From a virus: DNA of 64,000 nucleotides. The stretch is from positions 112,193 through 176,192 of the IMG/VR virus record IMGVR_UViG_3300027782_003601. One strand, written 5' to 3'. The translations under genes and the position numbers were made by a program. Under the pieces are notes generated by a model. That model made no database searches and was not told where the DNA came from. It saw only the letters and a list, made by a program, of their open reading frames with translations. Shown here piece by piece: positions 4,726 to 64,000 of this stretch. Position 1 is the first letter of the stretch. Each line of letters starts with the position of its first letter.

Positions 4726-4755
4726 AATTCCAAAGAAATTTGGAATTTTTCTTTA
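4726..4755 (+). terminator. Rho-independent terminator
   Basis: AATTCCAAA-GAAA-TTTGGAATT hairpin followed by a T-rich tract. Confidence 0.65.
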
Positions 4756-4772
4756 GTTTTCTAAAAAGTTAT

Positions 4773-4920
4773 ATACTTATTATTAAATATCCCATTCATT
4801 ATGGGATTACTTTTTATAGTTGATTAATGAATACCCTTCTTTATAAGGCGTGACCGAACAATCAACAGAATATCATTGGAGTTGTAATCAATAACTTCAC
4901 AAGTAAATCATAAAAAATAA
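4773..4920 (+). promoter_or_regulatory. Late-promoter variant (ATACTTATT) plus structured 5' leader of the scaffold/capsid operon
   Basis: Promoter-motif variant followed by four to five compatible helices (see findings). Confidence 0.5.
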
Positions 4921-6275: not shown

Positions 6276-7937
6276 ATGAACTTAAAAAAATTAATGACAG
6301 GTGCTAACCCACAAAGCATTATGCTTGAGCAAACTAGAGGTTTGAAAGGCAAGTGGGAAAAAACAGGATTACTTGAAGGAGTAGGTTCTGAAACAACTAA
6401 GCATGGTATGGCAGTGATGTTAGAGAACCAAGCTAAGCAATTATTGGACGAGGCAACTCGTACAGGTACTTCAGCAGGTTCTGAAGAATGGGCAGGTGTT
6501 GCTCTTCCATTAGTAAGACGTATTTTCGGTTCTATCGCAGCAAAAGAATTTGTTTCGGTTCAACCAATGAACTTACCTTCAGGTCTTATTTTCTATATGG
6601 ATTTCAAATATGGTTCAACTGCAGGAAAAGATTCTAATAGACCAGCTTCTGGTTCTTCTTTATTTGGTGATGGTGGTACTTATGGTAAAGATTCTTTATC
6701 TCCAGCAGGTAACAAATTAGGTTCAACTCAAGCTACTACTGGTGGTTTGTATGGAGCAGGACGTTTTGGATACACAATCAATGATACTAAAGTTGCCGTT
6801 GCCGGTAAAACTATTGCAACTGCTTCATTGGCTGATATTTCTTTTGATTTAACTGATTCTACTATTTCTGGTGCATACGCAACAGGTCGTATTAAAAAAG
6901 TAACTGTACCTTTTACTGATTTATCAGGTTCTAGAGGTTCTGCTGACCAAAACGCAGTTAGAGCATTTGATTTTATCAACTCTGGTTCTGGATTTACATT
7001 CTTACCACAATATACTAAAGTTAATGGTGCTAACGTTGAATTCTTAGCTTATACTACTCTTAATACATCTACTGCATTTGGTGGAACTGTTGCAACTGTA
7101 GCAGGTGAGGTTGTTTATGTAGCTCAACCGGGTGCTGATAACAGAGGTGATTTTGAAGATAAAGGTTCTGATTTAGCTATTACAGAAATTGAATTAGAAT
7201 TAAAATCTGAGCCAATTGTGGCTAAGACTCGTAAATTGAAAGCAATCTGGACTCCAGAATTAGCTCAAGATTTAAATGCATATCACTCAGTAGATGCTGA
7301 AGCTGAATTAACTCAAATGTTATCTGAGTATATCTCATTAGAGATTGACTTAGAAATTTTAGAGATGTTGCAGCAAAACGCATTCACAACTGATTATTGG
7401 TCTGCAAAAGTTGGATACGATTTTAACTCAGCAACAAATACTTTCGCAATTGATTCTAACGCAGCTGCTGCAAGTGCTTACCAAAAGAGTAGTTGGTTCC
7501 AGACTTTGGGTATCAAATTACAAAAGGTATCTAATAAGATTCACCAATTAACAATGAGAGGTGGAGCAAATTTTGTCGTTTGTTCTCCTAACGTTGCAAC
7601 TATTTTAGAATCAATGAATGGTTTCTCAGCAAATCCTGGTAAAGATGCTTTACAATTTGCAGCTGGTGTAACTAACATTGGTCAAATTTCTAATAGATAC
7701 GATGTTTATAAGAATCCTTATATGACAGAAAACGTTATCTTATTAGGTTTCAAAGGTTCTAACTTCTTTGAGACAGGTGCGGTTTACGCTCCATATGTTC
7801 CGTTGATTATGACTCCATTAGTGTACGACCCAACTAACTTTACTCCACGTAGAGGTGTTATGACTCGTTACGCTAAGAAAATCGTAAGACCAGAATTTTA
7901 CGGTAAAATCATCGTTGATGGATTAGAGACTCTTTAA
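6276..7937 (+). CDS. gp23: Major capsid protein (T4 gp23-like)
   Basis: LENQ, LPLVRR, VQPMNLPSGLIF, AKTRKLKAIWTPELAQDLNAYH, YAPYVPL and GVMTRY motifs. Confidence 0.97.
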   Translation: MNLKKLMTGANPQSIMLEQTRGLKGKWEKTGLLEGVGSETTKHGMAVMLENQAKQLLDEATRTGTSAGSEEWAGVALPLVRRIFGSIAAKEFVSVQPMNLPSGLIFYMDFKYGSTAGKDSNRPASGSSLFGDGGTYGKDSLSPAGNKLGSTQATTGGLYGAGRFGYTINDTKVAVAGKTIATASLADISFDLTDSTISGAYATGRIKKVTVPFTDLSGSRGSADQNAVRAFDFINSGSGFTFLPQYTKVNGANVEFLAYTTLNTSTAFGGTVATVAGEVVYVAQPGADNRGDFEDKGSDLAITEIELELKSEPIVAKTRKLKAIWTPELAQDLNAYHSVDAEAELTQMLSEYISLEIDLEILEMLQQNAFTTDYWSAKVGYDFNSATNTFAIDSNAAAASAYQKSSWFQTLGIKLQKVSNKIHQLTMRGGANFVVCSPNVATILESMNGFSANPGKDALQFAAGVTNIGQISNRYDVYKNPYMTENVILLGFKGSNFFETGAVYAPYVPLIMTPLVYDPTNFTPRRGVMTRYAKKIVRPEFYGKIIVDGLETL

Positions 7938-7961
7938 TCTCAATCAATTAAAGTAACCATT

Positions 7962-7995
7962 AAGGGAGGACAGAAATGTTCTCCCTTTTGTTTTA
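7962..7995 (+). terminator. Rho-independent terminator after capsid gene
   Basis: AAGGGAGGACA-GAAA-TGTTCTCCCTT hairpin plus T tract. Confidence 0.85.
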
Positions 7996-8024
7996 TAGGA
8001 TATATCAGTTCTTTTTTATTTCTT

Positions 8025-8033
8025 ATATTTATA
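8025..8033 (+). promoter_or_regulatory. Putative late promoter ATATTTATA
   Basis: Same 9-mer recurs in intergenic gaps at 14762, 15120, 20757, 27409, 35782, 39731, 42782 and 48380; variants at 38087, 51039 and 4773. Confidence 0.65.
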
Positions 8034-8057
8034 GGTGTAAAACTATAAATTTTCATT

Positions 8058-9254
8058 ATGTCTGTAAACACATACTGGTCAGGTTCAGTATCTGGCTCAT
8101 TTATATCGGGTTCATCTACTCCTTTTGGAATTTACGATTCGGATACTGGATTTAGAAATGATGCACCTAAAACTGCAACATGGGTAGCAAAGCGTTTAGG
8201 ATATCCAATTGTTAATATTGAATTGAATAATGACCAAATATTTGCTTGCTTTGAAGAATCTGTTTCAGAATATTCAGCACAAGTAAATCAATTTAATCTT
8301 CGTAATAACCTTGATATTTTAAGAGGTCAACCAAAGGGTAAAATTGCAAATTATTCTCAAACTCTTGTAGATGGTTCATATTTGCCAACATCAATTCGTA
8401 TGGCACAACAATATGGAACATTATCAGGTGTAGGAGGTTCAACTGCAATCAAAAAAGCATATATAACATTAACATCATCAGTTCAAGTATATGATTTGAT
8501 GACTCAAGCAACAGATAATGAAAGTAGTCGTTCTTTTGGGTTAATATTTAGTGGTTCATCAACTGTTGATGTTACAAAGGTATTTCACGAAGCAATTCCC
8601 GCAATTACTCGTTTCTTTGACCCATATTCGGTAGGTGCACAAGGTACGTTGAATTTAATGAGTGAGTTAGGTTTTGGTAATTATTCACCTGCTGCACAAT
8701 TCTTAATGATGCCTTTATATGAGGATGTATTGAGAATGCAACATATTGAATTTAATGACCATATTCGTAAATCAGCATTTACATTTAATATTGTAGATAA
8801 TAAATTAGAAATATTTCCCGTTCCAACTATAAATTCACCATCAAGAATATACTTTGAGTATATGAGTAGAGATGAATTTGAACATGATTCTCAAACTATT
8901 CAATCAGAATCACTTTCTGATTATTCAGATATTCCGTATGATTTTATTCAATATTCAAATATAAATGATGTTGGAGTACAATGGATTAGAAAGTATACAT
9001 TAGCACTCTCTAAGGAGTTGTTAGGAGCAATAAGAGAGAAGTATTCATCTATTCCTATACCTGATGCAGAAATCTCTTTAGATGGGGCAGCATTGAGAGC
9101 AGAAGCACAAGTTGAAAAAGATTATCTAATCACTCAATTAAGAGAAAATTTAGAAGAGATGAGTAGAAAAAATGTGATGGAAAATAAAACACATGAATCT
9201 AATCATCATCAAGAAATGTTAAGAAAAGTTCCATTAAAATTATATGTAGGATAA
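8058..9254 (+). CDS. gp13: Neck protein (T4 gp13-like)
   Basis: RLGYPIVNIEL at the N-terminus; WIRKYTLALSKELLGAIREKYSSIPIP...LDG at the C-terminus; follows the capsid gene. Confidence 0.85.
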   Translation: MSVNTYWSGSVSGSFISGSSTPFGIYDSDTGFRNDAPKTATWVAKRLGYPIVNIELNNDQIFACFEESVSEYSAQVNQFNLRNNLDILRGQPKGKIANYSQTLVDGSYLPTSIRMAQQYGTLSGVGGSTAIKKAYITLTSSVQVYDLMTQATDNESSRSFGLIFSGSSTVDVTKVFHEAIPAITRFFDPYSVGAQGTLNLMSELGFGNYSPAAQFLMMPLYEDVLRMQHIEFNDHIRKSAFTFNIVDNKLEIFPVPTINSPSRIYFEYMSRDEFEHDSQTIQSESLSDYSDIPYDFIQYSNINDVGVQWIRKYTLALSKELLGAIREKYSSIPIPDAEISLDGAALRAEAQVEKDYLITQLRENLEEMSRKNVMENKTHESNHHQEMLRKVPLKLYVG

Positions 9255-13929: not shown

Positions 13930-14751
13930 ATGGCAATACAAATTACAAATGGATTTAGAGTACAAAGTACGAAAGATGGTATAACTGCTTTAACCGCCGG
14001 GATTTCGGCATTTCAAATTAAAACAGATTTTCCAACTGCAACCGATGGTTTATATTGGATACAAAACCCAAACATAAATAGTGGTAGTGCAGTTCAAGTA
14101 TATTGTGATATGACTACACTTGGTGGAGGTTGGACTTTAATTATGCAGAATAATTATTATGATTGGACTTTTTCAAATTGTTTGTTAAGAAATCAAACAT
14201 CAGCTCCTTCTACTTTGGCAGCAAATAATACATTAGGTAGTGCTGGTAGTAATGGTAATTATAGTATTATTGGTTGGGCGGATTATATTAAAAAATCGGC
14301 AAGTGGATTTGATTATATGTTAGATGCGCAATATAGAGGAAGAAATGGTGGTGCATGGACGGCTAATCAGCCATATAGTTTTGTAGGACAAGTTGATAAT
14401 GCAGCTTATAATGCTTCACCTTCAACTTATTTTGGTGGTGGTGGAAGTGTAATTTCAGGTAATGCTGGATTTCGTCAAGATATAACATTAATTTCTTCTT
14501 TTTATACTGGTGCAAGCGGTGTTGGGACTTGGAGTTATAGTGATGGTGGTATAGAAAAACGAATGCCGTGGTACGCAAATAATGGAAGTAACGCTTCATT
14601 TGTAGGTCAGGCTATCTTTACTACAACACATGATGATAATGGTTCGTGGTGGGGTACATTAATGATGACTGGTACTAATTTCTCCCCTGCACCTTGGCAA
14701 AATGATACCGGTGTAGGTAACCCCAATATTATTTGGTATTGGGTTAGATAA
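13930..14751 (+). CDS. Fibrinogen-related (FReD/NEC-like) domain protein, putative adhesin
   Basis: DGLYWI...QVYCDMTTLGGGWTLI motif. Confidence 0.75.
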   Translation: MAIQITNGFRVQSTKDGITALTAGISAFQIKTDFPTATDGLYWIQNPNINSGSAVQVYCDMTTLGGGWTLIMQNNYYDWTFSNCLLRNQTSAPSTLAANNTLGSAGSNGNYSIIGWADYIKKSASGFDYMLDAQYRGRNGGAWTANQPYSFVGQVDNAAYNASPSTYFGGGGSVISGNAGFRQDITLISSFYTGASGVGTWSYSDGGIEKRMPWYANNGSNASFVGQAIFTTTHDDNGSWWGTLMMTGTNFSPAPWQNDTGVGNPNIIWYWVR

Positions 14752-14776
14752 TTGATTTTTTATATTTATACATAAT

Positions 14777-15082
14777 ATGGCAAACTTAATAAGATTAAAA
14801 CAAATAGAGAGTGGTACAACGTTTACTGCATCCGTATTAAGTGTATTAAATGGTAATACTCTTAATAATATAACAATTGGAACAGCAAATTCTGATAGAT
14901 ATTCATTAATAGTTAGTGGAGCAGTGGCAATTGTGGATGCAAATAATTTACCAGATGGTGGTCTAAATGATATAGATACAAATGTACCTGGGCAATTATG
15001 GTTAAATGGTCAATCATTACCATTAGACCCATCTATTAGTGGAAGTGGTGTATCAAACATTATAGACCAGGGTGAATGGTAA
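14777..15082 (+). CDS. Small fibre adaptor protein
   Basis: 101 aa; preceded by ATATTTATA; ends IDQGEW. Confidence 0.55.
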   Translation: MANLIRLKQIESGTTFTASVLSVLNGNTLNNITIGTANSDRYSLIVSGAVAIVDANNLPDGGLNDIDTNVPGQLWLNGQSLPLDPSISGSGVSNIIDQGEW

Positions 15083-15166
15083 AAAAAATTAATAAAATCA
15101 TTCATTAGTTATAAAACTTATATTTATAGATTGAACACAATTATTGATAAAAAATAATTAAAAAAT

Positions 15167-17974
15167 ATGCCACAAATAATTAAACACAGAAGAGGTAGTT
15201 TAGAATCACTACCATCAATTACATCATCACTTCAAAGAGGTGAACTTGTAATAGCATCTGGCTCAACCAATTTAACCGCATCTAACGGTAATTCTATCAC
15301 TTTTGTTGTTCCTACCGATGGTACGATTCAAGCAACTAATAGAATTATAAGAGGAGCAGTAGCACCAAACGTATTTCCTGGTTCTACTTATGGTGGAATG
15401 TTGAATGGAGTTCCGTTTTATGCAAGTTCTTCAACTCAACTTCCTACTTTATTTTTATTAAATCAAGATGGAAATGAATCTATAAATTTAGTAGGTAACA
15501 TCCAACCATATAGTAGTTCGGTTGCAGCACAAATAGCAAATTTAAGTTCATCGGTTGGTACTGGTAATGTTGGAGCATCGGTTACAAGTTTAAACGCATA
15601 TACTGCATCCGCAGAACAAAAATTTGCAGCAATTGGATTAGTAACATCCTCATTAAATGCATATACTCAAAGTAATGATACTGTAAATACTAATCAAAAT
15701 AATAGATTAAGTAGATTAGAAGAATCAACTGCTTCATTAAATGCTTTTAGTGCATCTCAAAATACTAAAGATACAACACTCGCAACATATACAGGTTCAA
15801 TTGATACTAAGTTTACTGCAGTTGCGGCATCAACTGCATCATTGAATTTATTTACTTCATCAATAAATAATTTAGGATTTGCAACAACGGGTTCTAATAC
15901 TTTTAGAGGAACTCAGATTGTATCTGGTTCAATGTATATAACAGGCGATGTGGTTGTTTTTGGTTCATCATCAATGCAAACACTTTCTCAAAGTGTATTA
16001 AACATTGGAACTAATTTAATTACTGTTAATACGGCAAATCCACAATCTAGATTTGGTGGAATGGCTGTAATTGATTCTGGTTCATCACCATTGGTTTCAG
16101 GTTCAATATTATTTGATTCTCGTGATAATGAATGGGTATTTGTACATCAAGCTATATCTGGCTCACCTTTAACATCATCAATTTTCATTACAGGTCCTGA
16201 AACATTAAATAATTTAGGAAACGAAATAAGTTTAACTACTAATAGATTAACAAAAGCAAGTAATAATTCACACCTTTATGATTCTCAAATAACGGATGAT
16301 GGTTCAACGGTTTCAATTAGTGGTAGTTTACAAGTAACAGGTTCAGTAACTGCATCGGCATTCTTAGGAACAATAAGAGCAACAAATGGTATAGTATCTG
16401 GTTCTTCTCAAGTAGATGTAACGGCTACTACAAACTTTACAACATATAGTGGTTCGGTATCCGCATCATTGGCAGCAATAAATGCAAACGTTGGAGCAGG
16501 TGTAGGTATTTCTATAACCAACTTAAATGCATTTACTGCATCACAAATAGATAAAAACGCAACATTAGCAACTTATACGGGTAGTGTTAATAGTAGATTA
16601 AGTAATTTAGAAATTGCATCAGCATCGGCAATTAGTAGATTAGACCAATTATCAACTGATAGTGGTTCTCAAAATACAAGAATTACTACATTAGAAAATA
16701 AAGCAACAACTTTAGGAACTTATACCGCTTCAGTTGATGCAAAATTTGTATCAATCGGTGCAAGTACTTCTTCTTTAAATACTTATACGGCATCTGCTGA
16801 TAATAAATTTAGTGCAATACAATCATCAACGGCATCATTAAATGTATACACTCAATCTAATGATACAACAAATACTGCACAAAATGCTAGATTAACTGCA
16901 TTGGAAACCGCAACAGGTTCAAATACGGTTGTATCTCAATCAATATATTTAATTAACAACTATACTGGTTCAGCATTTTTATCTCAATCAGTTGTAAATG
17001 CTAGATTAACAGCATTAGAAATTGCTTCATCATCTTTAGAATTTTTTACCTCTTCACAAAATACTAAAAATAGTACATTAGCTCTTTATACAGGTTCTAA
17101 TGATACAAAGTGGAGTAATTTAGCAGTTTATACGGGTTCTATTGATACAAAGTTTGCAGCAGTTCAATCTTCTACAAGTTCATTAAACTTATTTACATCA
17201 TCTATATTGACAGCATTGACTGCAAGTGGTGTAAACTTAACTGCAAACGGAAACTTAACTGTAAATGGTAATTTAACGGTAGGTGGTACACAAACAATTG
17301 TAAACTCTACAACTGTTCAATTAGGTGATAATATAATTGAATTAAATGGCTCAAGCGTTGCAAATGGAGGTATTTATGTAAAAGACCCAACTGCTCCTAC
17401 AACAGGAACTGGTTCATTCTTATGGAATTCAACTGGTGATTTCTGGATAGCAGGATTAAGTGGTTCTGAGCAAAGAATATTAGTAGTGGGTTCAATGGGA
17501 GTTGTATCCGGTTCTTCTCAAATTAGTTTAGCAGGAACTTCTGATTATACATCTTTATTTACAGGTATTGCATCAGCAACCGCATCCCTAAATACTTTTA
17601 GTGGTTCTCAGGTAACAAAGGATTTAACACTCGCAACGTATACGGGTTCAATTGATACCAAATTTACAACATTAGGAACTTATACGGGTTCAATTGATAC
17701 AAAATTCACAGCAGTAGCGGCATCAACTGCATCTTTAAATACATTTACTGCAAGTTTAAGTTCTACATCACAAGTAACATTTGGTGGAGTAACATCTTCA
17801 TTCAATATAGCAGCAGCTAGTGTGAGTGGTTCTACTACTACTAAACGAATTGCATTTAGAGATACAACTGGTAAATTAGAATTAGTCCCATCAGCATCAG
17901 TAAATGGTGATTTTGTTCAATGGGATGGTGGAAGTTTTATAATGAGTAACATAATTGACGGAGGCTCATTCTAA
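15167..17974 (+). CDS. Long fibre protein (Mtd_N-like N-terminus, Ser/Thr-rich coiled-coil repeats)
   Basis: MPQIIKHRRG...LQRGEL N-terminus; TASLN/YTGS repeats; ends IDGGSF. Confidence 0.75.
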   Translation: MPQIIKHRRGSLESLPSITSSLQRGELVIASGSTNLTASNGNSITFVVPTDGTIQATNRIIRGAVAPNVFPGSTYGGMLNGVPFYASSSTQLPTLFLLNQDGNESINLVGNIQPYSSSVAAQIANLSSSVGTGNVGASVTSLNAYTASAEQKFAAIGLVTSSLNAYTQSNDTVNTNQNNRLSRLEESTASLNAFSASQNTKDTTLATYTGSIDTKFTAVAASTASLNLFTSSINNLGFATTGSNTFRGTQIVSGSMYITGDVVVFGSSSMQTLSQSVLNIGTNLITVNTANPQSRFGGMAVIDSGSSPLVSGSILFDSRDNEWVFVHQAISGSPLTSSIFITGPETLNNLGNEISLTTNRLTKASNNSHLYDSQITDDGSTVSISGSLQVTGSVTASAFLGTIRATNGIVSGSSQVDVTATTNFTTYSGSVSASLAAINANVGAGVGISITNLNAFTASQIDKNATLATYTGSVNSRLSNLEIASASAISRLDQLSTDSGSQNTRITTLENKATTLGTYTASVDAKFVSIGASTSSLNTYTASADNKFSAIQSSTASLNVYTQSNDTTNTAQNARLTALETATGSNTVVSQSIYLINNYTGSAFLSQSVVNARLTALEIASSSLEFFTSSQNTKNSTLALYTGSNDTKWSNLAVYTGSIDTKFAAVQSSTSSLNLFTSSILTALTASGVNLTANGNLTVNGNLTVGGTQTIVNSTTVQLGDNIIELNGSSVANGGIYVKDPTAPTTGTGSFLWNSTGDFWIAGLSGSEQRILVVGSMGVVSGSSQISLAGTSDYTSLFTGIASATASLNTFSGSQVTKDLTLATYTGSIDTKFTTLGTYTGSIDTKFTAVAASTASLNTFTASLSSTSQVTFGGVTSSFNIAAASVSGSTTTKRIAFRDTTGKLELVPSASVNGDFVQWDGGSFIMSNIIDGGSF

Positions 17975-18033
17975 TAAAATAATTTAATCTCTTTTTAAAA
18001 AAATGGAGATTTTTAATAGTAATAACTAAATGA

Positions 18034-20040
18034 ATGGCTCCAATATTAAAACATAAACGTGGTAGTTTAGAAGGATTAGCAGCAATAACATCATCTTTAC
18101 AAAAAGGTGAATCGGTATTTGCATCTGGCTCATCTAATATATCTTCGTCAAACGGAAGTTCAATCACATTCATTGCAGCCGAACAAGGTAGATTGCAAGC
18201 CGTTAATAGAGTTATAAAAGGAACTACTGCACCAAATGTATTTTCAAGTTCTGTTTATGGAGGATTAGTAGATGGTGTTCCATATTATGCAAGTTCATCG
18301 GCAATAGTTCCTACATTATATTTGTTAGGAAATAATGGCAATCAAGCAATTGATTTAACTGGAAACATTAACGCATTTTCATCATCAGTTTCTCAACAAT
18401 TTCAAACTTTAAATGCATCAAGTGCTGTAATAGAAAAAGTATTTTATGTAAGTGAAGATGGGTTGGATACCAATGATGGTAAAAGTTTAGGAACTTCTTT
18501 TAGAACAATAAAACAAGCTACAATAGCAGCATCAGCTTCATTGGCATTAAATAATGTAATTCCGGTTTATAGACAAAGTATTCAAATCAAAAGTGGATAT
18601 TATGTAGAGGAAGCTCCAATAACAGTTCCTTCAAATGTTTCTATATTAGGAGATGATTTGAGAAGTGTTGTAATTAGACCTACAACTGGAACAAAAACCG
18701 AAAATTTATTCTTAATGAATAATGGTACATATTGTTGGGGATTAAGATTAGAAGGTTGTGAAATTGATGATTTAGATAACCCAAGAAAAGGATTCTTTTT
18801 TGCATATGCACCTGGTGCATATATTGTAACTTCTCCATATATTCAAAACTGTTCGGCAATATCAACACCTGCAGACAAATTCTATACACCATTGGATTAT
18901 GAAAATAATAACCCATTGATAGGAAACGGACCTGGTGGAATGATTATAGATGATTCGGTATTAGATGGATATTCACCACTTAAATCAATGATTGTAGATG
19001 CATACACTCAGGTAGCATTCAATGGTATTGGTATTTGTATTAGAGGTAGAGGATATGGGCAATTGGTATCATTCTTTACAAACTTTAGTAGTACTGGCGT
19101 ATTTTGTATTGATGGAGGACATGCTTCTTTATTAAACTCAAATACTACATTTGGTGATTATGGGTTAAGAGCACAAGGAAAGAGAATGTTAGTTAAACCG
19201 GATATTGCATCAGTATCCTCTTCAATAGATGTGAGTGGCTCTCTATTGATAAAAGCAGAAAAGGCAAATATACAATCCTATATGATAAGCAAATTAGTTT
19301 TATCGGGTAGTTACAATTATACATATATAAGTGGAAGTGGTAGTAATTATGCTGGGACAATCAAAGATAGTGGTTTGCTAATAGATGCAATCTCAGATGA
19401 TTTACTTGCTCCTAAAGCTAGTAGAACTTTTCAATTTACATCGGGCTTATTCAAAGGACAAGATATTTCAACCGGAAGTATTTATACATTATCTCCGGCA
19501 ACTGGTTCTACATTTGATAAAGGTGCGGTAACTGTGTTTCCATTGATTTCAAATACAAGTGGTTCTTTGGTAGGAGACTATATAAAATCATATGGATATA
19601 TGAAAGAATATATAATTAATGACCCTCAAAATAGGTTTACTACATTAAGTGTAAATGCTAAAAATAAAATAGGTCAGATGTTTGATGTAGTTTCAGATAC
19701 TCTTACACAAGTTGTTGTTCAAAACTCAGGTTCAAATTTATTAGAAGAATTTGGTTCATTGGTAACTTCAACTTCACATGATTTTTCATACGCAGGAGCT
19801 GGAGTAAACTTTTTAGCACTTCCTGTAAATCAAGGTGGTGTTGGTGAAACCAATTTTGATATTAGAATTTCCGAAATTAGTGGTGGTAGAGTATATCATA
19901 CATCAGGAGATGAAACAGGTGATTTTTATGCAGGTAATGATTTTATTATTAGACAACAAACGGGTACAATTGATGGTAGAACTTTTACAAAAGCTTTAGC
20001 AGCAAGATTTACTCCATTAAATTTAGCATTAGAAAGTTAA
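18034..20040 (+). CDS. Fibre/spike protein with pectin-lyase-like beta-helix (possible depolymerase)
   Basis: First ~130 aa paralogous to 15167; FYVSEDGLDTNDGKS..FRTIKQA, IKSGYYVE and SILGDDLRSV are typical of the entry to a beta-helix. Confidence 0.65.
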   Translation: MAPILKHKRGSLEGLAAITSSLQKGESVFASGSSNISSSNGSSITFIAAEQGRLQAVNRVIKGTTAPNVFSSSVYGGLVDGVPYYASSSAIVPTLYLLGNNGNQAIDLTGNINAFSSSVSQQFQTLNASSAVIEKVFYVSEDGLDTNDGKSLGTSFRTIKQATIAASASLALNNVIPVYRQSIQIKSGYYVEEAPITVPSNVSILGDDLRSVVIRPTTGTKTENLFLMNNGTYCWGLRLEGCEIDDLDNPRKGFFFAYAPGAYIVTSPYIQNCSAISTPADKFYTPLDYENNNPLIGNGPGGMIIDDSVLDGYSPLKSMIVDAYTQVAFNGIGICIRGRGYGQLVSFFTNFSSTGVFCIDGGHASLLNSNTTFGDYGLRAQGKRMLVKPDIASVSSSIDVSGSLLIKAEKANIQSYMISKLVLSGSYNYTYISGSGSNYAGTIKDSGLLIDAISDDLLAPKASRTFQFTSGLFKGQDISTGSIYTLSPATGSTFDKGAVTVFPLISNTSGSLVGDYIKSYGYMKEYIINDPQNRFTTLSVNAKNKIGQMFDVVSDTLTQVVVQNSGSNLLEEFGSLVTSTSHDFSYAGAGVNFLALPVNQGGVGETNFDIRISEISGGRVYHTSGDETGDFYAGNDFIIRQQTGTIDGRTFTKALAARFTPLNLALES

Positions 20041-20050
20041 AAAATAAATT

Positions 20051-20395
20051 ATGGCAACTACAATACCATTAAATAGGTTTAGATTACTTACAAAAGTTTT
20101 AGCTAGTGGAAGTAATACTCTATATCAACAAACGGATGATGTATCTACTATTATATTATCATGTCAAATAACAAATGTAACATCTAGCATTCAAAGTGCA
20201 AGTGTTCAAATACAAAAAAGTGGTTCGGCAGGAAGTATTACTCTTTTAAAAAACGGAGGAATACCACCAGCGGAATCATTAAATCCATTTGGAGGAAAAA
20301 TTGTATTAGAAACTTCCGATAAATTACTTATGTTAACCGCAACATCGGGTTCTTTGGAAGTAGTATTATCAGTATTAGAAAATGCAAATAATTAA
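20051..20395 (+). CDS. Small virion beta-sandwich protein
   Basis: 114 aa; GKIVLETSDKL...VVLSVLE pattern seen in phage fibre-associated proteins. Confidence 0.55.
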   Translation: MATTIPLNRFRLLTKVLASGSNTLYQQTDDVSTIILSCQITNVTSSIQSASVQIQKSGSAGSITLLKNGGIPPAESLNPFGGKIVLETSDKLLMLTATSGSLEVVLSVLENANN

Positions 20396-20403
20396 TAGTA
20401 AAA

Positions 20404-20736
20404 ATGTCTAAATTAATAGGTAGAAAACCCATAGAAGTAAACATAACCGCTCAATCGGGTGGGGTTCTTCCTATATACAATAGTCAATACGGTGGCTGGG
20501 ATACTATTAGTAAAAATGATTTAATTTCAAGTAGTGTTCAATTAAGTGGTTCAAACACAATAATTGGAAATCAAATAATTAGTGGTAGTTTAAGAGTAAC
20601 TCAAACGGTATCTGCATCCCTATTTTCAGGTTCATTTTATGGTATAGGTGATATATTGGCATTTAGTGGTTCAGTAGCAACTAGATTGTATAATTTAGAA
20701 TTATCAGCATCAGTTTTAGATGCGGGAACATTTTAA
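20404..20736 (+). CDS. Small fibre adaptor protein
   Basis: 110 aa; SGSNTIIGNQIISGS fibre motif; ends LDAGTF. Confidence 0.55.
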   Translation: MSKLIGRKPIEVNITAQSGGVLPIYNSQYGGWDTISKNDLISSSVQLSGSNTIIGNQIISGSLRVTQTVSASLFSGSFYGIGDILAFSGSVATRLYNLELSASVLDAGTF

Positions 20737-20764
20737 TATTTTTATTTATATTTAATATATTTAT

Positions 20765-20796
20765 AAGGGTAGTATATACTACCTTTTTTGTTTTTA
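20765..20796 (+). terminator. Terminator-like hairpin overlapping a late-promoter motif
   Basis: AAGGGTAGT-ATAT-ACTACCTTT followed by TTTGTTTTT. Confidence 0.55.
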
Positions 20797-20824
20797 TATA
20801 ATCTATTAAATATAGACCATAAAT

Positions 20825-23800
20825 ATGGCTCAAAGCATTATACTAAAGCGTTCAGCGCTTCAGGGGAAAGTTCCTACCACATCCTCACTTAGTTTAGGTG
20901 AAATAGCAATTAATACTTACGATGGTAAGCTATATTTAAATCGCTCTGGGTCAATACAATCTATACAAGAGATAATAACAACAAACGTAGTTAATACGGG
21001 TTCAATTACCCTAACTCAAACGGGTTCATTTGGTGAATTAGTAGTTTCACAAGATGGAAATTTTCAAAGAGATTTATATGTAACAAGAGATGTAATTACA
21101 AATGGTAGTTTAGATATACTATACGATGTATCTGCATCCGTATTCTTAGGAGCAATTAGAGCAACCAATGGTGTAATATCGGGCTCATCACAAATAACTT
21201 CATTGGGATTTATTAGTTCATCACAAACGATAAATACAGGTTCATTAGCAACTACGGGTTCAAATTCATTTAAAGCAGACCAACAAATAACAGGTTCTTT
21301 AGGAGTAAGTGGTGATATAACTGTATTGGGTTCAGTTAATGCAAGACAATTCAATATTGGTATAATTTCATCATCCGTTTTATACACATCAGGTTCTACC
21401 AAATTTGGAGATACCGGAGATGATATAATGAGTGTAACAGGTTCTTTACAAGTTAGTGGTTCATTAACTGTAACAGGTAGTGTTACTGCAGCAAACGGAT
21501 TTACAGGTTCATTATTTGGTACTGCATCTAATCTTAGTAATAGTGCTACTATTAGGACCAGTACTGCTGGTGGTCATGGATTTGGTATATTAACTCCCGA
21601 CACTACTATATATTTAACAGTTGGTATAAATGGTGGTAATGCTATAGCAAGTTCAGGAAATGTATCCGGAATTAGAACAATACCAACTCAAACAGGTACA
21701 GGTGGTGTAGTTGGAATTTATTCAAATCCAATATTAAGTGGTACTCTTCCCAATTCATCATCACTTACTTCAATACAAGCGGGAGTTAGAGCAGCAAATG
21801 CAAGTGCTTCGTATGGTAGAGCTTTAGAAGTAATTAGTCCTACCATAAATGGCACTTCTTCAATTAACATAAATACGGGTTTATACATTAACGCTCAAAG
21901 TGCTTCGGGTGTAACAACGGGATACGGTATTTATCAATCATCATCATTAGATTTAAATTACTTTGCAGGAAATTTGGGATTAGGACCTAATAAGATGTTC
22001 CCTACTGCTCAATTAGATATTTCTGGTTCTGCAATAATAACCGGTTCATTAGTTGTAACAAATGGTATTACGGGTTCTTTATTTGGTACGGCATCTTATG
22101 CATTAAACGGAAGTTCAAATGCAATAATGTATCAGACAGCATCAGCGGCATCAACTTGGGTATTTAACCATTTCTTAGCAACTCCATATCCTGTTGTAAC
22201 TGTTTACGATAATAATAATAGTGTAATCATACCTCAATCTATTGTTTCAAATGATAGTAGTTCTTTAACAATAACTTTTTCATCAGCAAGAACGGGAGTA
22301 GCAGTAGCATCAAAAGGTGGTTATGTTGGTTCATCGGTAGGAACTGCAACTGTTGCAAACGCATTGACAACGGCAAGGTTAATAAATGGAACTTCATTTG
22401 ATGGTACTCAAAATATAACAATACCAAATTTAGTTTCAGGTTCAACTCAAATTAGTTTAGCAGGAACTTCGGATTATGGTAATTTGTTTGGAGGTATTGC
22501 ATCGGCAACTGCATCATTAAACACATACACAGGCTCAGTTTCAGACCCTAAATTTGGAATTTTGTCAGTCGTATCAGGAGCATTAAATCAATTTACTGCA
22601 TCAATAAACGGATGGAGTGGTTCAATAGCAACAACTGGTTCTAATTCATTTAGAGGAACACAACAAATAACTGGTTCATTATCGGTAAGTGCAGCTATTA
22701 CAGGTTCAAATGGTAAATTTACTACTGGTATTTCAGCAGGTCAATTATCAACACCAACTATATCCACAATATCTGCATCATCCGCAGGTGGAACTATACC
22801 TGCAGGAACTTATTATTATAAAGTAGCGGCATTAGATTACAATGGTACTCAAACACCTGGAAGTAGTGAAGTTTCAACTACAGTAACAGGTTCAACGAGT
22901 AATATATTTTTATCTTGGAGTCTTATACAAGGAGCAAGTTCATATAGAGTATATAGAAGTACTACATCAAATACATATGGTTCATATGTTGCAGTAAATA
23001 ATGGTGTTAATGGAACATTTACAGATACAAACCAAGCCGTAACATCTGGGAGTATAGCTACACTAAATGATACTGGGTATGGATTTTTTGATGCATCCAA
23101 ACTTAGAACAAACAATATTACATTAGTTAATAATGGCATTGGCCAATTGGCTACAATAACATTTGAAAAATCAACTGATGGTGCGGCAATCAACGTTGCA
23201 GAATACTCATCTGATTCCACAATGTTTGAATTTAAAACAACCGATAATCCAGATGGTACTGGTGACTTTTTTCATTGGTTTACAGGAGATTATCAAAACC
23301 CAAGTTCAGGATGGAAACCACTTAAACTAACAAATTTTACAAATCAATTTGTTGCACAAAATACAAACTTTTGGAGTTCATTTAATTTACCATCAAATAC
23401 AGGATATTATACTACAAATGCTGATACTTTAGCAAATGCTACAATAAAAGCAGACCCATATACAAGTAACTCATATAGTTTATTAAAAGATAGTGGTACA
23501 GGTACTGGGATATTGAACGTAGAAATAAGTGGATTTACGGGAACCAGTATGAGAACTTACTGGATAAGTATTGCATCATCGACAACATTTGATTGGGGAA
23601 TTAATTCTCAAACATATGGAACTACATTAGGAACGGGCGTTATAATAACGGGAGCATTCCAAACATTAGATAATGGTCTTCAAATTAAATTATCAGCAGG
23701 TGGACATGTTGCCGGAGATAGATGGGCATTTAGAGCATTCCCAACACCTAAATTTGTTATTGGTAAATCAACTACTGGTAATGCACCTTTTGATTTATTA

Positions 23801-51937: not shown

Positions 51938-52291
51938 ATGACAGAAACACAAATGCCTGAAGCAATTGCATATTGCGAAGAAATGTATCCACAAACAACG
52001 GATGAATTTAAAAATATTTTAGATGAGATGTATCTTACATTTTGTAAGAAACAAAGAAACTACGGACCTGGAAACATCTCAGTAGGAACTACTTTACAAA
52101 CCAAAGAAGATATTAAGTTATCATTAACAGGATTGTGGTTTAGACAAAACGATAAAATAAACAGATTAAAACAATTAGTAGTTATGGGGCAACCAGATGA
52201 AGTTGGAGAATCTGTTGAAGATACTTACCAAGACCTTGCCGTATATTCCGTAATTGCTCAATTAGTGAGTAGAGGAAAGTGGGCAAAATAA
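51938..52291 (+). CDS. Nucleotide-modification-associated domain 1 (DUF1599/Nmad1-like)
   Basis: KKQRNYG...RQNDKINRL...ESVEDTYQDLAVYSVIA. Confidence 0.75.
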   Translation: MTETQMPEAIAYCEEMYPQTTDEFKNILDEMYLTFCKKQRNYGPGNISVGTTLQTKEDIKLSLTGLWFRQNDKINRLKQLVVMGQPDEVGESVEDTYQDLAVYSVIAQLVSRGKWAK

Positions 52292-61262: not shown

Positions 61263-61294
61263 TTTGTGATTATCAAAAAAATTGGTTATATTAG
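61263..61294 (+). promoter_or_regulatory. Bacteroidota-type promoter variant for the HTH-mom operon
   Basis: TTTG (61263-66), 20-nt spacer, TATATTAG (61287-94, one mismatch). Confidence 0.5.
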
Positions 61295-61298
61295 AAGT

Positions 61299-61499
61299 AT
61301 GTTAAGAGGTGAAGCGCATCCAATGCACAAATTGACTGAAGAGCAAATATTGCAAATCAGAGATTTATGGAAAATAGGTCATAGAAATATTAGAGTTATA
61401 TCCAGAAACTATGGAGTTTCACCTGCTAATATAAAAAAAATAGTTACGAACAAAACATGGACACACATGATAAAGTGGCCTTATGAAAGAACTCAATAA
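61299..61499 (+). CDS. Stand-alone HTH of the type found C-terminal to HNH homing endonucleases
   Basis: RGEAHPMHKLTEEQILQIR...YGVS...I.KI....TW.H; no HNH motif; ATG 61299 preferred over GTG 61266, which lies inside the promoter. Confidence 0.65.
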   Translation: MLRGEAHPMHKLTEEQILQIRDLWKIGHRNIRVISRNYGVSPANIKKIVTNKTWTHMIKWPYERTQ

Positions 61500-62247
61500 G
61501 TTATATTGTGATACATCAAAATTAGTTGTAAGGCAAGTAAACAAAAATATAGCAAAAGATATCATTGTCAATAACCATTATAGTGGTATATGGACGAAGG
61601 TATCTTATGCTATTGGTTTGTTTCATGTATCAAATGATGAACACAAATTCTTTGGTGGAGTTAATGAAAAACTTATTGGAGTAGCTTGTTATGGTGACCC
61701 AGTTGGTAGACATTCCGGCGCATCAATTTCGGAACTATTGGATAGAACTGAAGTATTGGAATTGACACGATTATTTGTATTTGATGGATATGGTTCTAAC
61801 ATTGAAAGTTGGTTTGTTGGTAAATCATTTGAATGGTTGAGAAAAAATGTACCACATATTAAAGCATTGGTATCATATTCAGACCCAAAAGCAGGTCATT
61901 TAGGAACTGTATATCAAGCAACAAATTGGATTTATCAAGGAAATAGAATCAGACCAAATGATAGTTGGTCTTTTAAATGGAGTGAGGATGATGAATGGCA
62001 TCATAGTAGAACATCATTTGTAAGATATGGTACTAATGACCCAAAAGCAATTCAAACAATGGTATCAATGCCATTTTGGATTAAGAAAGAACCGAGAAAA
62101 CATCGTTATGTTTATATACTTTTGAATGGTAGAGAAAGAAAGAAATTATTAAAATCTTTAAAGTATCCATCATTACCATACCCAAAAGCAAAGGAGGAAT
62201 TTATTGAAGAAATACATAAATTAGAACCAATTGAAAGAATTAAATAA
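61483..62247 (+). CDS. mom: Mom-like (GNAT-fold) DNA adenine modification protein, copy 1
   Basis: NHYS, LELTRL, NIESWF, SYSD...H.GTVYQATNW.Y.G, KHRY. Confidence 0.8.
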   Translation: MKELNKLYCDTSKLVVRQVNKNIAKDIIVNNHYSGIWTKVSYAIGLFHVSNDEHKFFGGVNEKLIGVACYGDPVGRHSGASISELLDRTEVLELTRLFVFDGYGSNIESWFVGKSFEWLRKNVPHIKALVSYSDPKAGHLGTVYQATNWIYQGNRIRPNDSWSFKWSEDDEWHHSRTSFVRYGTNDPKAIQTMVSMPFWIKKEPRKHRYVYILLNGRERKKLLKSLKYPSLPYPKAKEEFIEEIHKLEPIERIK

Positions 62248-63034
62248 GTTATATTGTGATACGAGCAAAGTATCTATTAGAGAAATCAATAGTAATGTAG
62301 CCAAAGAGATTATAGTTAAAAAACACTATACTCACGCTTGGACTGCTTGTAGATATGCATTAGGTATATTTTACAAAACTGATAATCAAAATGTAATTGG
62401 TGATGATGAAATCCTAATTGGATGTATGGTTTATGGATTTCCAGTAGGAGCTAGAGCATCTACATCGGTATGTGAGGGATTGACAAAAGATAACATTTTA
62501 GAATTGACACGATTATATTGCGATGATGGTTATGGTTCTAATATTGAATCATACTCATTAGGACAATCATTCAAATGGTTTAAAGAAAATGATAAAGCAA
62601 TTAAAGTATTAATTTCTTATGCAGATAATGGACAAGAACATTTGGGTGGTATTTACCAAGCAACAAATTGGATTTATCAGGGATTAAATACAGATATTGC
62701 TTTAATGCCAAATTATGGTATTTCATTATCGGATTCCCCATTCAAATGGATTCATAGTAGGACTGTATTTACCAAATGGGGTAGTGGTAATTTAGAACAT
62801 CTTCGTAGAGAAATCGGTAAAGATGGTTATAAACAATTTTGGAGAAGAGAAGAGCCACCAAAACATAGATACATACAAATCATAGGAGCAGATAAAAAAG
62901 ATAAAAAAGATTTGATTAAGAGGTTAAAACATGAGGTTAGACCCTATCCTAAGAATGCTAGAGAATACAATAAAGGAGTAGAAATGCACACTACAATAGA
63001 ACCGGATTCAGAAATATCCGTTAAGTTTTGGTAA
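62231..63034 (+). CDS. mom: Mom-like (GNAT-fold) DNA adenine modification protein, copy 2 (TTG start)
   Basis: KHYT, LELTRL, NIESY, SYAD...HLGGIYQATNW.Y.G, KHRY; paralog of the preceding gene. Confidence 0.8.
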   Translation: MKELNKLYCDTSKVSIREINSNVAKEIIVKKHYTHAWTACRYALGIFYKTDNQNVIGDDEILIGCMVYGFPVGARASTSVCEGLTKDNILELTRLYCDDGYGSNIESYSLGQSFKWFKENDKAIKVLISYADNGQEHLGGIYQATNWIYQGLNTDIALMPNYGISLSDSPFKWIHSRTVFTKWGSGNLEHLRREIGKDGYKQFWRREEPPKHRYIQIIGADKKDKKDLIKRLKHEVRPYPKNAREYNKGVEMHTTIEPDSEISVKFW

Positions 63035-63058
63035 TACCAATAATTTTTCGTATATTTG
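63027..63058 (+). promoter_or_regulatory. Bacteroidota-type sigma-A promoter
   Basis: TTTG (63027-30), 20-nt spacer, TATATTTG (63051-58). Confidence 0.7.
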
Positions 63059-63184
63059 ATAACATTGTTGCAACAATAGTGGTTAATCAACACTTAAAAC
63101 TGATTAGAAAAGGTCATTATCTTTGTGGTAATAAGCACCCGAACTTGGACCTTAAATTTATTAAATAACTAAAAAAGACTAAAA

Positions 63185-64000
63185 ATGTCAAAAACAAAAC
63201 AAAACGCTCCCGTCATTGAAGGCGTTACCGAAAAATTTGATGAATTATACCCTGTAAACTTATTAACATATGGGGAAGATAATTATGATTTGTATTACGA
63301 TAAAGATGATAGTTCGTATTATACAGATTTAAAAGCATCCATATATGACTATGGATTAAAATCTCCAATACTTGTATATTCAACAGATGAAGTTAAATCT
63401 GGAAATACAAGATTGAGAGCGTGTATTGAATTAGGATATGAATATATTCCTATTGTTCGTTCAATATTAGATAAGCCAAAGGATAAATTTTCTAACCTTA
63501 TGGCTTTACAAATGGAAAATCAAACCAGACCTAGTAATCTTCGTAGACAATACAACCAAATATACAAAACCATTTCAGCATATGAACAGGTTAATAATAA
63601 AACTTGTTCGGCTAATATTATTGAAAAAGAGATTTGTACAGCTGCACAAATGAGTTACAATCAATATAAAAATCTTTCTACTTTAGAATCAAACAGACCT
63701 GATTTATTTCAACGAGTAATTGATAGTAATGGTTCTAAACTTTCCCCTGGAAAAGCTATTGAGCTAATGAAGCAAGATTTATTAAAATCAAAACAACTTA
63801 ATATATCCAAAGCTTTAGAAAACGCTGTTACTAGAGAAGATGTAACATATGCAGTTAATGCTGTTTCAAATGCATTAAATACAATGTTTGGTGTTAAAAT
63901 TAATGGTAGAGATGGTAGTCAAATTAATGCATTCAATAACATACAACAAAATACAATAGGTGGTTTAGTTCATGAAGTATTTACTAATGCTATTGCACAT
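63185..64000 (+). CDS. ParB/Sulfiredoxin-like N-terminal domain protein, 3'-truncated by the window (absent from the ORF track)
   Basis: Own translation: LKASIYDYGLKSPILV...SGNTRLRACIELG...IPIV...ENQTR; open to the window end. Confidence 0.75.
   Translation, partial: MSKTKQNAPVIEGVTEKFDELYPVNLLTYGEDNYDLYYDKDDSSYYTDLKASIYDYGLKSPILVYSTDEVKSGNTRLRACIELGYEYIPIVRSILDKPKDKFSNLMALQMENQTRPSNLRRQYNQIYKTISAYEQVNNKTCSANIIEKEICTAAQMSYNQYKNLSTLESNRPDLFQRVIDSNGSKLSPGKAIELMKQDLLKSKQLNISKALENAVTREDVTYAVNAVSNALNTMFGVKINGRDGSQINAFNNIQQNTIGGLVHEVFTNAIAH

What the first reader, a model, noticed from the sequence alone, without database searches (positions are those of the whole stretch)
61263..64000. HTH - mom - mom - ParB-like locus: candidate two-subunit DNA hypermodification system
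Seen: two intact but diverged Mom-family paralogs in tandem, both starting KELNKLYCDTSK. They are preceded by a stand-alone HTH gene and followed by a ParB/Srx-domain gene, and an Nmad1-like gene lies at 51938. Core GNAT motifs are shared, while the C-terminal parts differ (SWSFKW...HHSRT vs NYGISL...IHSRT). Known: Mu Mom modifies adenine to block restriction, acts as a single gene, is toxic, and is controlled by a small overlapping upstream gene (com); ParB-like and Nmad domains recur in phage base-modification neighbourhoods. Inference: a heterodimer or two-specificity anti-restriction system with its own regulator.
Basis: partly seen in the sequence, partly recalled or inferred. Interest (0 to 1): 0.75.

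Follow-up and report, generated by a model that had tools for sequence, protein, structure and literature searches.

The report
Two conserved Mom DNA-modification genes in tandem
A T4-like phage from a metagenome carries two old, intact copies of the Mom enzyme (which decorates adenine in phage DNA using charged tRNA) side by side. Most relatives keep the pair, but it looks like two separate enzymes rather than a two-subunit machine with its own regulator and ParB partner.

Summary
Window 61483-62247 (Mom1, 254 aa) and 62231-63034 (Mom2, 267 aa, TTG start) are full-length Mom-family ORFs (Pfam PF25680, 151 and 148 bits) and 43% identical. Both keep Mu Mom's H58, Y59, R111, S124, D149, Y159 and W181, and both AF2 models best match Mu Mom (8BV8).

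The pair is conserved. All 60 related IMG/VR loci with enough DNA have both ORFs intact (dN/dS 0.14 and 0.10). In a sample anchored on a neighbouring gene, the site holds Mom1+Mom2 in 22 loci, Mom2 alone in 6, no Mom in 1 and Mom1 alone in 0.

The four-gene system is not supported:
- Complete relatives carry Mom2 alone, with at least 2 independent Mom1 losses.
- The HTH gene persists in Mom-less relatives and sometimes sits between the two Moms.
- A ParB-like gene follows Mom2 in only 7 of 90 loci.
- The Nmad1-like gene varies independently of Mom.

Best reading (0.55): two separately acting tRNA-dependent adenine-N6 modifiers with diverged specificity, in a variable accessory-gene site. A facultative heterodimer is not excluded. 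I found multi-copy Mom arrays (up to four genes) in related contigs and no description of them in the papers searched.

The parts
61483..62247 (+). Mom1: Mom-family GNAT, predicted tRNA-dependent adenine-N6 DNA modifier (254 aa)
   Evidence: PF25680 150.7 bits. AF2 pLDDT 93.4, and the top Foldseek hit is 8BV8 Mu Mom, E 1e-13. Mu H58, Y59, R111, S124, D149, Y159 and W181 are kept. dN/dS is 0.135 over 65 orthologs.
62231..63034 (+). Mom2: second Mom-family GNAT (267 aa, TTG start, overlaps the Mom1 stop by 17 nt)
   Evidence: PF25680 148.1 bits. AF2 pLDDT 91.5, and the top Foldseek hit is 8BV8, E 5e-13. The same catalytic residues are kept. dN/dS is 0.096 over 64 orthologs. It is the only Mom in records G006 (100% complete) and G007 (90%). 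Its start codon is TTG in 30 and ATG in 23 distinct pairs.
61484..61514 (+). 5' direct repeat, copy 1 (HTH stop / Mom1 start junction)
   Evidence: 29 of 31 nt are identical to 62232-62262, including a 21-nt exact run. The HTH/Mom1 and Mom1/Mom2 junctions share the same -17 nt overlap geometry.
62232..62262 (+). 5' direct repeat, copy 2 (Mom1 stop / Mom2 start junction)
   Evidence: It is a footprint of tandem duplication or gene conversion, and a ready substrate for a precise deletion of Mom1.
61266..61499 (+). Small stand-alone HTH protein (77 aa), a backbone neighbour of uncertain role, overlapping the Mom1 start by 17 nt
   Evidence: Weak HTH_7 match; PHROG matches to the HNH-endonuclease C-terminal HTH at E 1e-4. 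dN/dS is 0.157 over 66 orthologs. It is also found without any Mom and between the two Moms.
63185..64000 (+). ParB/Srx-like gene, cut by the contig end; a variable neighbour, not a conserved part
   Evidence: ParB_N 18.9 bits, below the cut-off; phrog_3951 1e-9 and phrog_4715 3e-8. The full 399-aa form is in L004. It follows Mom2 in 7 of 90 distinct loci.

Best explanation
These are two separately acting Mom-family enzymes. By homology with Mu Mom, each is expected to form its own homodimer, take an aminoacyl group (glycine in Mu) from charged tRNA, and put it on N6 of adenine in double-stranded phage DNA late in infection, which blocks host restriction. The two copies split long before this phage clade diversified and have since fixed different residues next to the catalytic site and in the Mom-specific HTH-like insertion, which in Mu is predicted to read the DNA major groove. 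The most likely gain from keeping both is coverage of two different DNA sequence contexts, so that more adenines and more restriction sites are protected. The genes sit in a variable accessory-gene site between thioredoxin/HTH and a DruA-like gene plus DNA polymerase. That site holds two Moms in most relatives, Mom2 alone in some and none in a few. Shown here: family membership, intact catalytic residues, fold, conservation, purifying selection and Mom2 standing alone. Inferred: the chemistry (from Mu), the homodimeric state and the difference in specificity.
For: Family, fold and residues. Mu mechanism and essential residues: PMC13219725. Conservation: both ORFs are intact in 60 of 60 loci with enough DNA, and every 'single' case in that set lies at a contig end. 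Selection: dN/dS is 0.135 and 0.096. Each paralog forms its own well-supported clade (95-100 SH-aLRT). Independence: Mom2 is the only Mom in G006 (238 kb, 100% complete) and G007 (175 kb, 90%); the single Mom2s are nested among paired ones and need at least 2 changes. In the DruA-anchored sample the site holds M1+M2 in 22 loci, M2 in 6 and none in 1 (after correcting 3 loci that the script mislabelled). The two genes are separated by 78-796 nt or by inserted ORFs in 3 distinct pairs. Alleles reassort: relative to the window, Mom1 is 63% and Mom2 80-85% identical in one group, and 96% against 79% in another; pairwise distances correlate at only 0.50. Contig L081 has four Mom genes scattered among dUTPase, DNA polymerase and dCMP deaminase. 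Divergence: of the 28 positions fixed differently in the two paralogs, 17 lie beside R111, S124 or D149 or in the insertion (the regions were defined after seeing the data).
Against: No experiment or modification data exist for either protein, so a difference in specificity is inference only. Mom1 never occurs without Mom2 in the core clade (0 of 29 covered hot spots; 60 of 60), which would also fit Mom1 needing Mom2. 50 of 53 distinct pairs overlap or lie 4 nt apart, which suggests coupled translation. Mu R151, essential in Mu, is K in Mom1 and G in Mom2; it is also M in the single-copy Polaribacter phage Mom and is not conserved across the family. Mu W48, needed for Mu dimerisation, is N in both, so the oligomeric state here is unknown.
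Confidence: 0.55

Rival explanations
1. Facultative or obligate Mom1:Mom2 heterodimer. Mom is a dimeric enzyme, and the two paralogs form a mixed dimer with an asymmetric or extended DNA or tRNA recognition surface. Mom2 can also work as a homodimer, but Mom1 needs Mom2.
For: Mu Mom is a tight homodimer, and the monomeric W48A mutant is nearly inactive (PMC13219725). The genes overlap by 11-17 nt or lie 4 nt apart in 50 of 53 distinct pairs. Mom1 is never seen without Mom2 in the core clade. In many genomes the first 13 codons of the two genes resemble each other more than the next 25 codons do (nt identity 0.70 against 0.60 on average).
Against: Mom2 stands alone in complete genomes, and Mom1 was lost at least twice. 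Mom1 and Mom2 alleles reassort. ORFs are inserted between them in some relatives. Related Mom paralogs are dispersed rather than adjacent in L081 and G010. The absence of Mom1-only genomes can instead be explained by deletion between the 5' direct repeats, which removes Mom1 only.
Confidence: 0.18
2. Two different chemistries. The paralogs use different aminoacyl-tRNA donors (or one uses another acyl donor) and install two different N6-adenine adducts.
For: Paralog-specific fixed differences flank the catalytic residues: F98Y, V99C and F100D after R111, and S133A and P135N around D149. The Mu authors state that donor and substrate could not be predicted from the structure, so specificity in the family is open (PMC13219725). 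The genome encodes 23 tRNAs, including three tRNA-Gly(UCC), two of them aberrant.
Against: All residues known to matter in Mu are the same in both paralogs. Only glycine has been shown as a donor in the family. The aberrant tRNA-Gly genes do not track the Mom pair: they are absent from the complete, pair-bearing G002.
Confidence: 0.12
3. A four-gene system: an HTH regulator, two Mom subunits and ParB-like, with Nmad1 as a distant helper.
For: The HTH overlaps the Mom1 start by 17 nt, as com overlaps mom in Mu. The HTH is immediately upstream of the first Mom in most loci. ParB-like genes of different lineages recur directly after Mom2 in 7 loci.
Against: The HTH has no Cys, so it is not a Com-type zinc finger (sequence). 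It persists directly upstream of the DruA-like gene in Mom-less relatives and lies between the Moms in another. No HTH homologue was found near four more distant Mom homologues: the Polaribacter phage Mom and P0004-P0006. ParB-like is absent from 83 of 90 loci. The Nmad1-like gene is present in G011, which has no Mom match and an empty hot spot (53% complete), and absent from Mom2-only G006.
Confidence: 0.05
4. Redundant duplicates kept for dosage.
For: A tandem arrangement with near-identical 5' ends.
Against: Identity is only 43%. 28 positions are fixed differently in each paralog over about 50 distinct orthologs each. Both are under purifying selection, and each forms a separate deep clade.
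Confidence: 0.05

Closest known systems
Bacteriophage Mu Mom (PDB 8BV8; Silva et al. 2026, PMC13219725)
   Same: Same Pfam family and the same GNAT fold with the Mom-specific HTH-like insertion. H58, Y59, R111, S124, D149, Y159 and W181 are kept. A small upstream ORF overlaps the start codon.
   Different: About 26-28% identity. Mu has one gene; here two diverged paralogs are conserved in tandem. R151 and the dimer residue W48 are not kept. The upstream ORF is an HTH, not the Com zinc finger. The genome is a roughly 190-kb T4-like lytic phage of low G+C, not a transposable temperate phage.
Polaribacter phage P12002L Mom-like protein (NC_028924, gp53)
   Same: The closest cultured relative (46% identity to Mom1). 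It is the same subfamily and comes from a Bacteroidota phage.
   Different: A single copy in a 48.7-kb siphovirus, next to a DNA methyltransferase, with no HTH, second Mom or ParB-like gene. All 313 cultured phage records with a Mom match have just one place.
Mom domains fused to restriction-endonuclease domains in jumbo phages (Iyer et al. 2021, PMC7824862)
   Same: Another case in which large phages elaborate on the single-gene Mom scheme.
   Different: Those are fusions to a nuclease. Here there are stand-alone paralogs with no nuclease domain.
Fem transferases with several paralogs (FemX/A/B) and dedicated tRNA-Gly in staphylococci (from my own knowledge)
   Same: GNAT-fold, aminoacyl-tRNA-dependent transferases in which paralogs divide the substrate positions among them.
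   Different: Their target is peptidoglycan, not DNA. This is an analogy only, and no link between the phage's odd tRNA-Gly genes and Mom could be shown.

Membership tests
Mom family (Pfam PF25680 / PHROG 1384) | Profile match above the curated threshold over the full domain | tested here: met
   Mom1 150.7 bits (profile 2-202 of 202) and Mom2 148.1 bits (3-202), against a cut-off of 27.1. PHROG 1384 gives 2e-52 and 4e-47. phmmer against PDB finds 8BV8 at 6.5e-11.
Mom family (Pfam PF25680 / PHROG 1384) | GNAT fold with the Mom-specific HTH-like insertion | tested here: met
   AF2 models have pLDDT 93.4 and 91.5. The best Foldseek PDB hit for both is 8BV8 (E 1e-13 and 5e-13, TM 0.57-0.74), and ordinary GNATs follow only at E about 1e-4. 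Two helices are predicted in the insertion region (Mom1 175-182 and 187-191; Mom2 176-183 and 188-197).
Mom family (Pfam PF25680 / PHROG 1384) | Residues required for Mu Mom activity (R111, S124, D149, plus H58, Y59, Y159, W181) | tested here: met
   H58, Y59, R111, S124, D149 and Y159 are invariant in alignment A1 for both paralogs and their orthologs, and W181 is kept in both window genes. The same positions are at least 90% conserved in the 97-sequence family alignments.
Mom family (Pfam PF25680 / PHROG 1384) | R151 (essential in Mu) | tested here: not met
   It is K in Mom1 and G in Mom2. The position is also M in the single-copy Polaribacter phage Mom and is not among the family-wide conserved columns, so it does not define the family.
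Mom family (Pfam PF25680 / PHROG 1384) | Homodimer through the W48 interface | tested here: inconclusive
   W48 is N in both paralogs. No dimer model was obtained.
Mom family (Pfam PF25680 / PHROG 1384) | Gly-tRNA-Gly-dependent conversion of dA to 6-NcmdA in dsDNA | not testable with these tools
   This needs expression followed by nucleoside LC-MS and SMRT or nanopore sequencing.
Com-type translational activator of mom (Mu) | Small Cys4 zinc-finger protein whose gene overlaps the mom start | tested here: not met
   The overlap is present (17 nt). But the 77-aa protein has no cysteine, matches HTH families, and persists in relatives without mom.
ParB/Srx N-terminal domain protein as a partner of the modification system | ParB_N domain plus conserved linkage to the Mom genes | tested here: not met
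   ParB_N scores 18.9-19.0 bits, below the 26.3 cut-off, while PHROG ParB-like families match at 1e-7 to 1e-9. Linkage holds in only 7 of 90 distinct loci.
Nmad1 (DUF1599) as part of the locus | Domain match plus co-occurrence with Mom | tested here: not met
   The domain match is marginal (26.0 against 25 bits). The gene is present in G011 (no Mom match; 53% complete, hot spot covered and empty) and absent from the complete Mom2-only G006.

The most novel reading that the evidence does not exclude
The Mom paralog arrays of these T4-like phages (two in the window, up to four in relatives) form a combinatorial DNA-hypermodification kit. Each paralog would use a different aminoacyl-tRNA donor and/or DNA motif, so one genome would carry more than one kind of N6-adenine adduct. 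The two aberrant G33 tRNA-Gly(UCC) genes of this phage would serve as dedicated non-ribosomal donors, as staphylococcal tRNA-Gly do for the Fem enzymes.
Probability: 0.1. Interest if true: 0.85.

Novelty: new variant of a known kind. Interest (0 to 1): 0.5.

Why it matters
The Mom mechanism (charged tRNA as donor, dsDNA as target) was solved only in 2026, and its authors say that what sets donor and DNA specificity in the family is unknown. Naturally paired paralogs that share one genome, one host and one tRNA pool, yet have kept different residues around the active site and the DNA-reading insertion for a long time, are a ready-made comparison for mapping those determinants. Relatives with Mom2 only and with no Mom are natural controls. 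The data also show that Mom is not always the 'single gene' strategy seen in Mu. In a large group of uncultured T4-like phages its copy number varies from 0 to 4, consistent with selection from host restriction systems. If the paralogs have different motifs or products, they would also be new tools for site-specific DNA modification.

Tried and rejected
1. Complex prediction on Mom1 plus Mom2 with 97-row alignments returned 'no answer' (ipSAE 0.00, 0.00; controls not run).

2. Dedicated donor tRNAs. The two G33 tRNA-Gly genes were followed into relatives. They occur in 5 records, all of which carry the pair. But the complete, pair-bearing G002 lacks them, and about 75% of the clade has the pair anyway, so no link can be claimed.

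3. HTH as a Mom-specific regulator was rejected after finding it in Mom-less relatives and between the two Moms.

4. ParB-like and Nmad1-like as components were rejected on co-occurrence.

5. A recent duplication in this lineage. The ML tree places other metagenomic Moms between the two clades, but the AU test does not reject Mom1+Mom2 as one clade (p 0.40). The age and origin of the pair relative to other lineages are unresolved; only 'older than this clade's diversification' is safe.

6. DruA-like protein as a hidden Mom or GNAT relative: hhalign probability 0.9%, rejected.

7. The sigma-70 promoter scan gave fewer sites than shuffles (20 against 24.9). It is uninformative, because the host is probably a Bacteroidota with other promoter types.

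8. blastn against cultured phages found only the PhoH gene (68% identity to Flavobacterium phage immuto), so no cultured close relative is available.
Full report
WHAT IS THERE

The window is the last 64 kb of a 176,192-bp IMG/VR virus record that is linear and 92% complete by CheckV. G+C is about 31%. Upstream of the finding lies a T4-like replication module: gp32-like, RecA/UvsX, RNase H-like 5'-3' exonuclease, Cpn10, DnaB-like helicase, NrdB, NrdA, PhoH and thioredoxin. The only cultured phage matched at the DNA level is Flavobacterium phage immuto, through PhoH alone at 68% identity.

- HTH, 61266-61499, 77 aa.
- Mom1, 61483-62247, 254 aa.
- Mom2, 62231-63034, 267 aa, with a TTG start.
- A ParB-like ORF from 63185 that is cut by the contig end.

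Both Moms are full-length members of Pfam Mom PF25680, scoring 150.7 and 148.1 bits against a cut-off of 27.1, and of PHROG 1384. They are 43% identical to each other.

ARE BOTH COPIES LIKELY TO BE ACTIVE?

The Mu Mom mechanism was published in 2026 (PMC13219725). Mom is a GNAT-fold enzyme that transfers glycine from Gly-tRNA-Gly to N6 of adenine in dsDNA, and the adduct then rearranges to 6-NcmdA. The crystal form (8BV8) is a tight homodimer. R111, S124 and R151 are essential. Mutating H58, Y59, W48, Y159 or W181 drastically reduces activity, and D149A greatly reduces it. An HTH-like insertion (residues about 175-209) is required and is modelled in the DNA major groove.

Aligned with Mu Mom (fetched), both window paralogs and their orthologs keep H58, Y59, R111, S124, D149 and Y159, and the window genes keep W181. 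The same positions are at least 90% conserved across 97 family members. R151 is K in Mom1 and G in Mom2, but this position is not conserved in the family and is M in the single-copy Polaribacter phage Mom. W48 is N in both, so the dimer interface cannot be read from sequence. AF2 models of both are confident (pLDDT 93.4 and 91.5), and their best PDB match by far is 8BV8. Nothing suggests that either copy is inactive.

IS THE PAIR CONSERVED?

A scan of IMG/VR with Mom1 gave 72 loci. The order HTH-Mom1-Mom2 recurs throughout, with Mom1 at 62-98% and Mom2 at 58-98% identity to the window. Both ORFs are intact in all 60 loci that hold enough DNA, and the nine loci with a single full-length copy all lie at contig ends. 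Median pairwise dN/dS is 0.135 for Mom1, 0.096 for Mom2 and 0.157 for the HTH.

By contrast, 313 cultured phage records match Mom1 and every one has a single place. A wider profile-guided scan found more pair-bearing lineages, triple tandems (L106-L108) and other arrangements; 53 of 80 loci held more than one Mom ORF. One Logan contig has four Mom genes within 9 kb around the DNA polymerase (L081).

TWO SUBUNITS OR TWO ENZYMES?

Several results argue against an obligate two-subunit enzyme.
- Mom2 stands alone in some relatives, directly after the same HTH gene (L141, L144, L145, L153, L157). In two of them a whole-record search finds no second Mom: G006 (238 kb, 100% complete) and G007 (175 kb, 90%).
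- On a Mom2 tree the single copies are nested among paired ones in three places, and strongly supported branches force at least two changes.
- In a sample anchored on the neighbouring DruA-like gene rather than on Mom, the interval from thioredoxin to DruA-like holds Mom1+Mom2 in 22 loci, Mom2 alone in 6 and nothing in 1. These counts correct three loci that a DruA fragment made the script mislabel.
- Mom1 and Mom2 alleles reassort. One group has Mom1 at 63% but Mom2 at 80-85% identity to the window, and another has 96% against 79%. Pairwise distances correlate at only 0.50.
- Other ORFs lie between the two genes in some relatives.

Two facts keep a facultative heterodimer alive. Mom1 is never seen without Mom2 in the core clade. 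And 50 of 53 distinct pairs overlap by 11-17 nt or lie 4 nt apart. The first fact has another possible cause. The first 31 nt of the two genes are 29/31 identical, and the HTH/Mom1 and Mom1/Mom2 junctions have the same -17 geometry. Recombination between these direct repeats would delete exactly Mom1 and leave HTH-Mom2, which is the arrangement found in the Mom2-only genomes. The one complex-prediction job gave no answer (see Tried and rejected).

WHERE DO THE PARALOGS DIFFER?

Across about 50 distinct orthologs of each, 79 alignment columns are conserved and shared, and 28 are conserved but different between the two. Of these 28, 17 lie in one of three places:
- the loop and strand around R111 (Mom1 87-90 and 98-100);
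- next to D149 (133, 135);
- the start and helices of the HTH-like insertion (156-164, 184-191).

Mom2 also has two conserved small insertions in the insertion region. I defined these regions after seeing the data, so this is suggestive only. It does fit diverged recognition of DNA context or of the donor.

Each paralog is a well-supported clade. The ML tree places other metagenomic Moms between them, but an AU test does not reject a single Mom1+Mom2 clade (p 0.40). I therefore claim only that the split predates the diversification of this phage group.

THE NEIGHBOURS

HTH. Its family consists of 59-77-aa stand-alone proteins, all unnamed apart from a 'homeodomain-like' label. It has no cysteine, so it is not a Com-type zinc finger. 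In one relative it lies between the two Moms. In others a 59-aa form lies directly upstream of the DruA-like gene with no Mom at all, and record G011 has no Mom match in its 100 kb. No homologue of it was found near four more distant Mom homologues: the Polaribacter phage Mom and P0004-P0006. It behaves as a backbone gene at the edge of an insertion hot spot, and a regulatory role is possible but not shown.

ParB-like. The full form is 399 aa (L004). The ParB_N match is below Pfam's threshold, though several PHROG ParB-like families match. It directly follows Mom2 in 7 of 90 distinct loci, in several diverged versions. That makes it a recurrent but minor tenant of the same hot spot.

Nmad1-like. 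The gene at 51938-52291 is a marginal DUF1599 match. It is present in G011, which has no Mom match, and absent from the complete Mom2-only G006.

VERDICT

The proposed four-gene, two-subunit system is not supported. The best reading is two independently acting tRNA-dependent adenine-N6 DNA modifiers with diverged specificity, kept together in most members of a large uncultured T4-like phage group (confidence 0.55). A facultative heterodimer (0.18) and different donors or chemistries (0.12) are the main rivals.

I found no description of multi-copy Mom arrays in the papers searched; the Mu paper's title and discussion stress a single enzyme. I rate this a new variant of a known kind, of moderate interest. 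Its value is as a natural experiment on what sets specificity in a newly understood enzyme class. The scan's earlier notes on this genome concern other loci and did not bear on this one.

Noticed in passing
L162:2352-2425 and L162:2429-2500 (= G000:C1:14352-14425 and 14429-14500; outside the window): Two adjacent aberrant tRNA-Gly(UCC) genes. The anticodon loop reads CGUCCAG, so G33 replaces the universal U33. The T-stems are rich in G.U pairs, yet G1:C72, C2:G71, G3:C70, U73, C35 and C36 are kept. A third, canonical tRNA-Gly(UCC) lies at 14861-14933. An orthologue in G001 has the lowest Rfam tRNA score of that genome (34 bits). The odd tRNA occurs in 5 records, all with the Mom pair, but the complete pair-bearing G002 lacks it, so no link to Mom could be shown.
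   Followed up: partly
G000:C1:12589-12975 and 14352-21309 (outside the window): The phage record encodes a tmRNA-like gene and 23 tRNAs in one cluster (aragorn). The relatives checked carry 9-27 tRNAs.
   Followed up: no
L014:9515-10741 and orthologues (L038:6603-7829, L048:6584-7759): A 408-aa protein of the Druantia DruA family (Pfam PF14236 4e-20; PADLOC DruA 1e-20) is a conserved backbone gene next to the family-B DNA polymerase in these T4-like phages, whether or not Mom is present. A defence-system protein family in a phage replication module is unexplained. hhalign finds no relation to Mom.
   Followed up: partly
L249:4497-5200, L251:5648-6400, L206:6432-7150: A short extra DruA-like fragment lies between the HTH and the Mom cassette, with the full DruA-like gene after it. 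It looks like a target duplication left when the Mom (and ParB-like) cassette was inserted.
   Followed up: no
L081:1-506, 2473-3186, 4001-4783, 7755-8339: Four Mom-family genes lie within 9 kb of a 58.7-kb contig, interleaved with peptide deformylase, dUTPase, DNA polymerase B, a pyrimidine-dimer excision enzyme and dCMP deaminase.
   Followed up: partly
L043:10233-10757; L125-L127, L130, L135, L137, L139, L140, L142: A third, much more divergent and shorter Mom type (about 175-220 aa) recurs in relatives: just downstream of the DNA polymerase in L043, and 2-3 kb downstream of a full-length Mom in other clades. PF25680 gives 5.6e-34 for the L043 copy.
   Followed up: no
L106:6098-8360, L107:8093-10350, L108:7855-10110: A triple tandem: Mom1, an extra 239-aa Mom and Mom2 in a row after the HTH.
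   Followed up: no
window 61486-61521 and 62234-62269, and orthologues: The first 13 codons of Mom1 and Mom2 tend to co-vary within a genome (for example MKVEGK with MKEEGK, MKELNK with MKVENK), and in the L048 group the MKELNKLY variant sits on Mom2 rather than Mom1. This suggests short-tract gene conversion between the paralogs' 5' ends.
   Followed up: partly
P0062 (1439 aa), P0037 (612 aa), P0130 (583 aa), P0136 (516 aa), P0027 (408 aa): Proteins in the 1.8-billion-protein library carry a Mom domain within, or at the C-terminal end of, much longer proteins. The partner domains were not examined.
   Followed up: no
L014:8410-9513 and orthologues (367-377 aa): A conserved backbone protein between the Mom site and the DNA polymerase has no Pfam, PHROG or NCBIfam match. 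Like the DruA-like protein, its N-terminus carries an 'FW(D/E)' motif.
   Followed up: no
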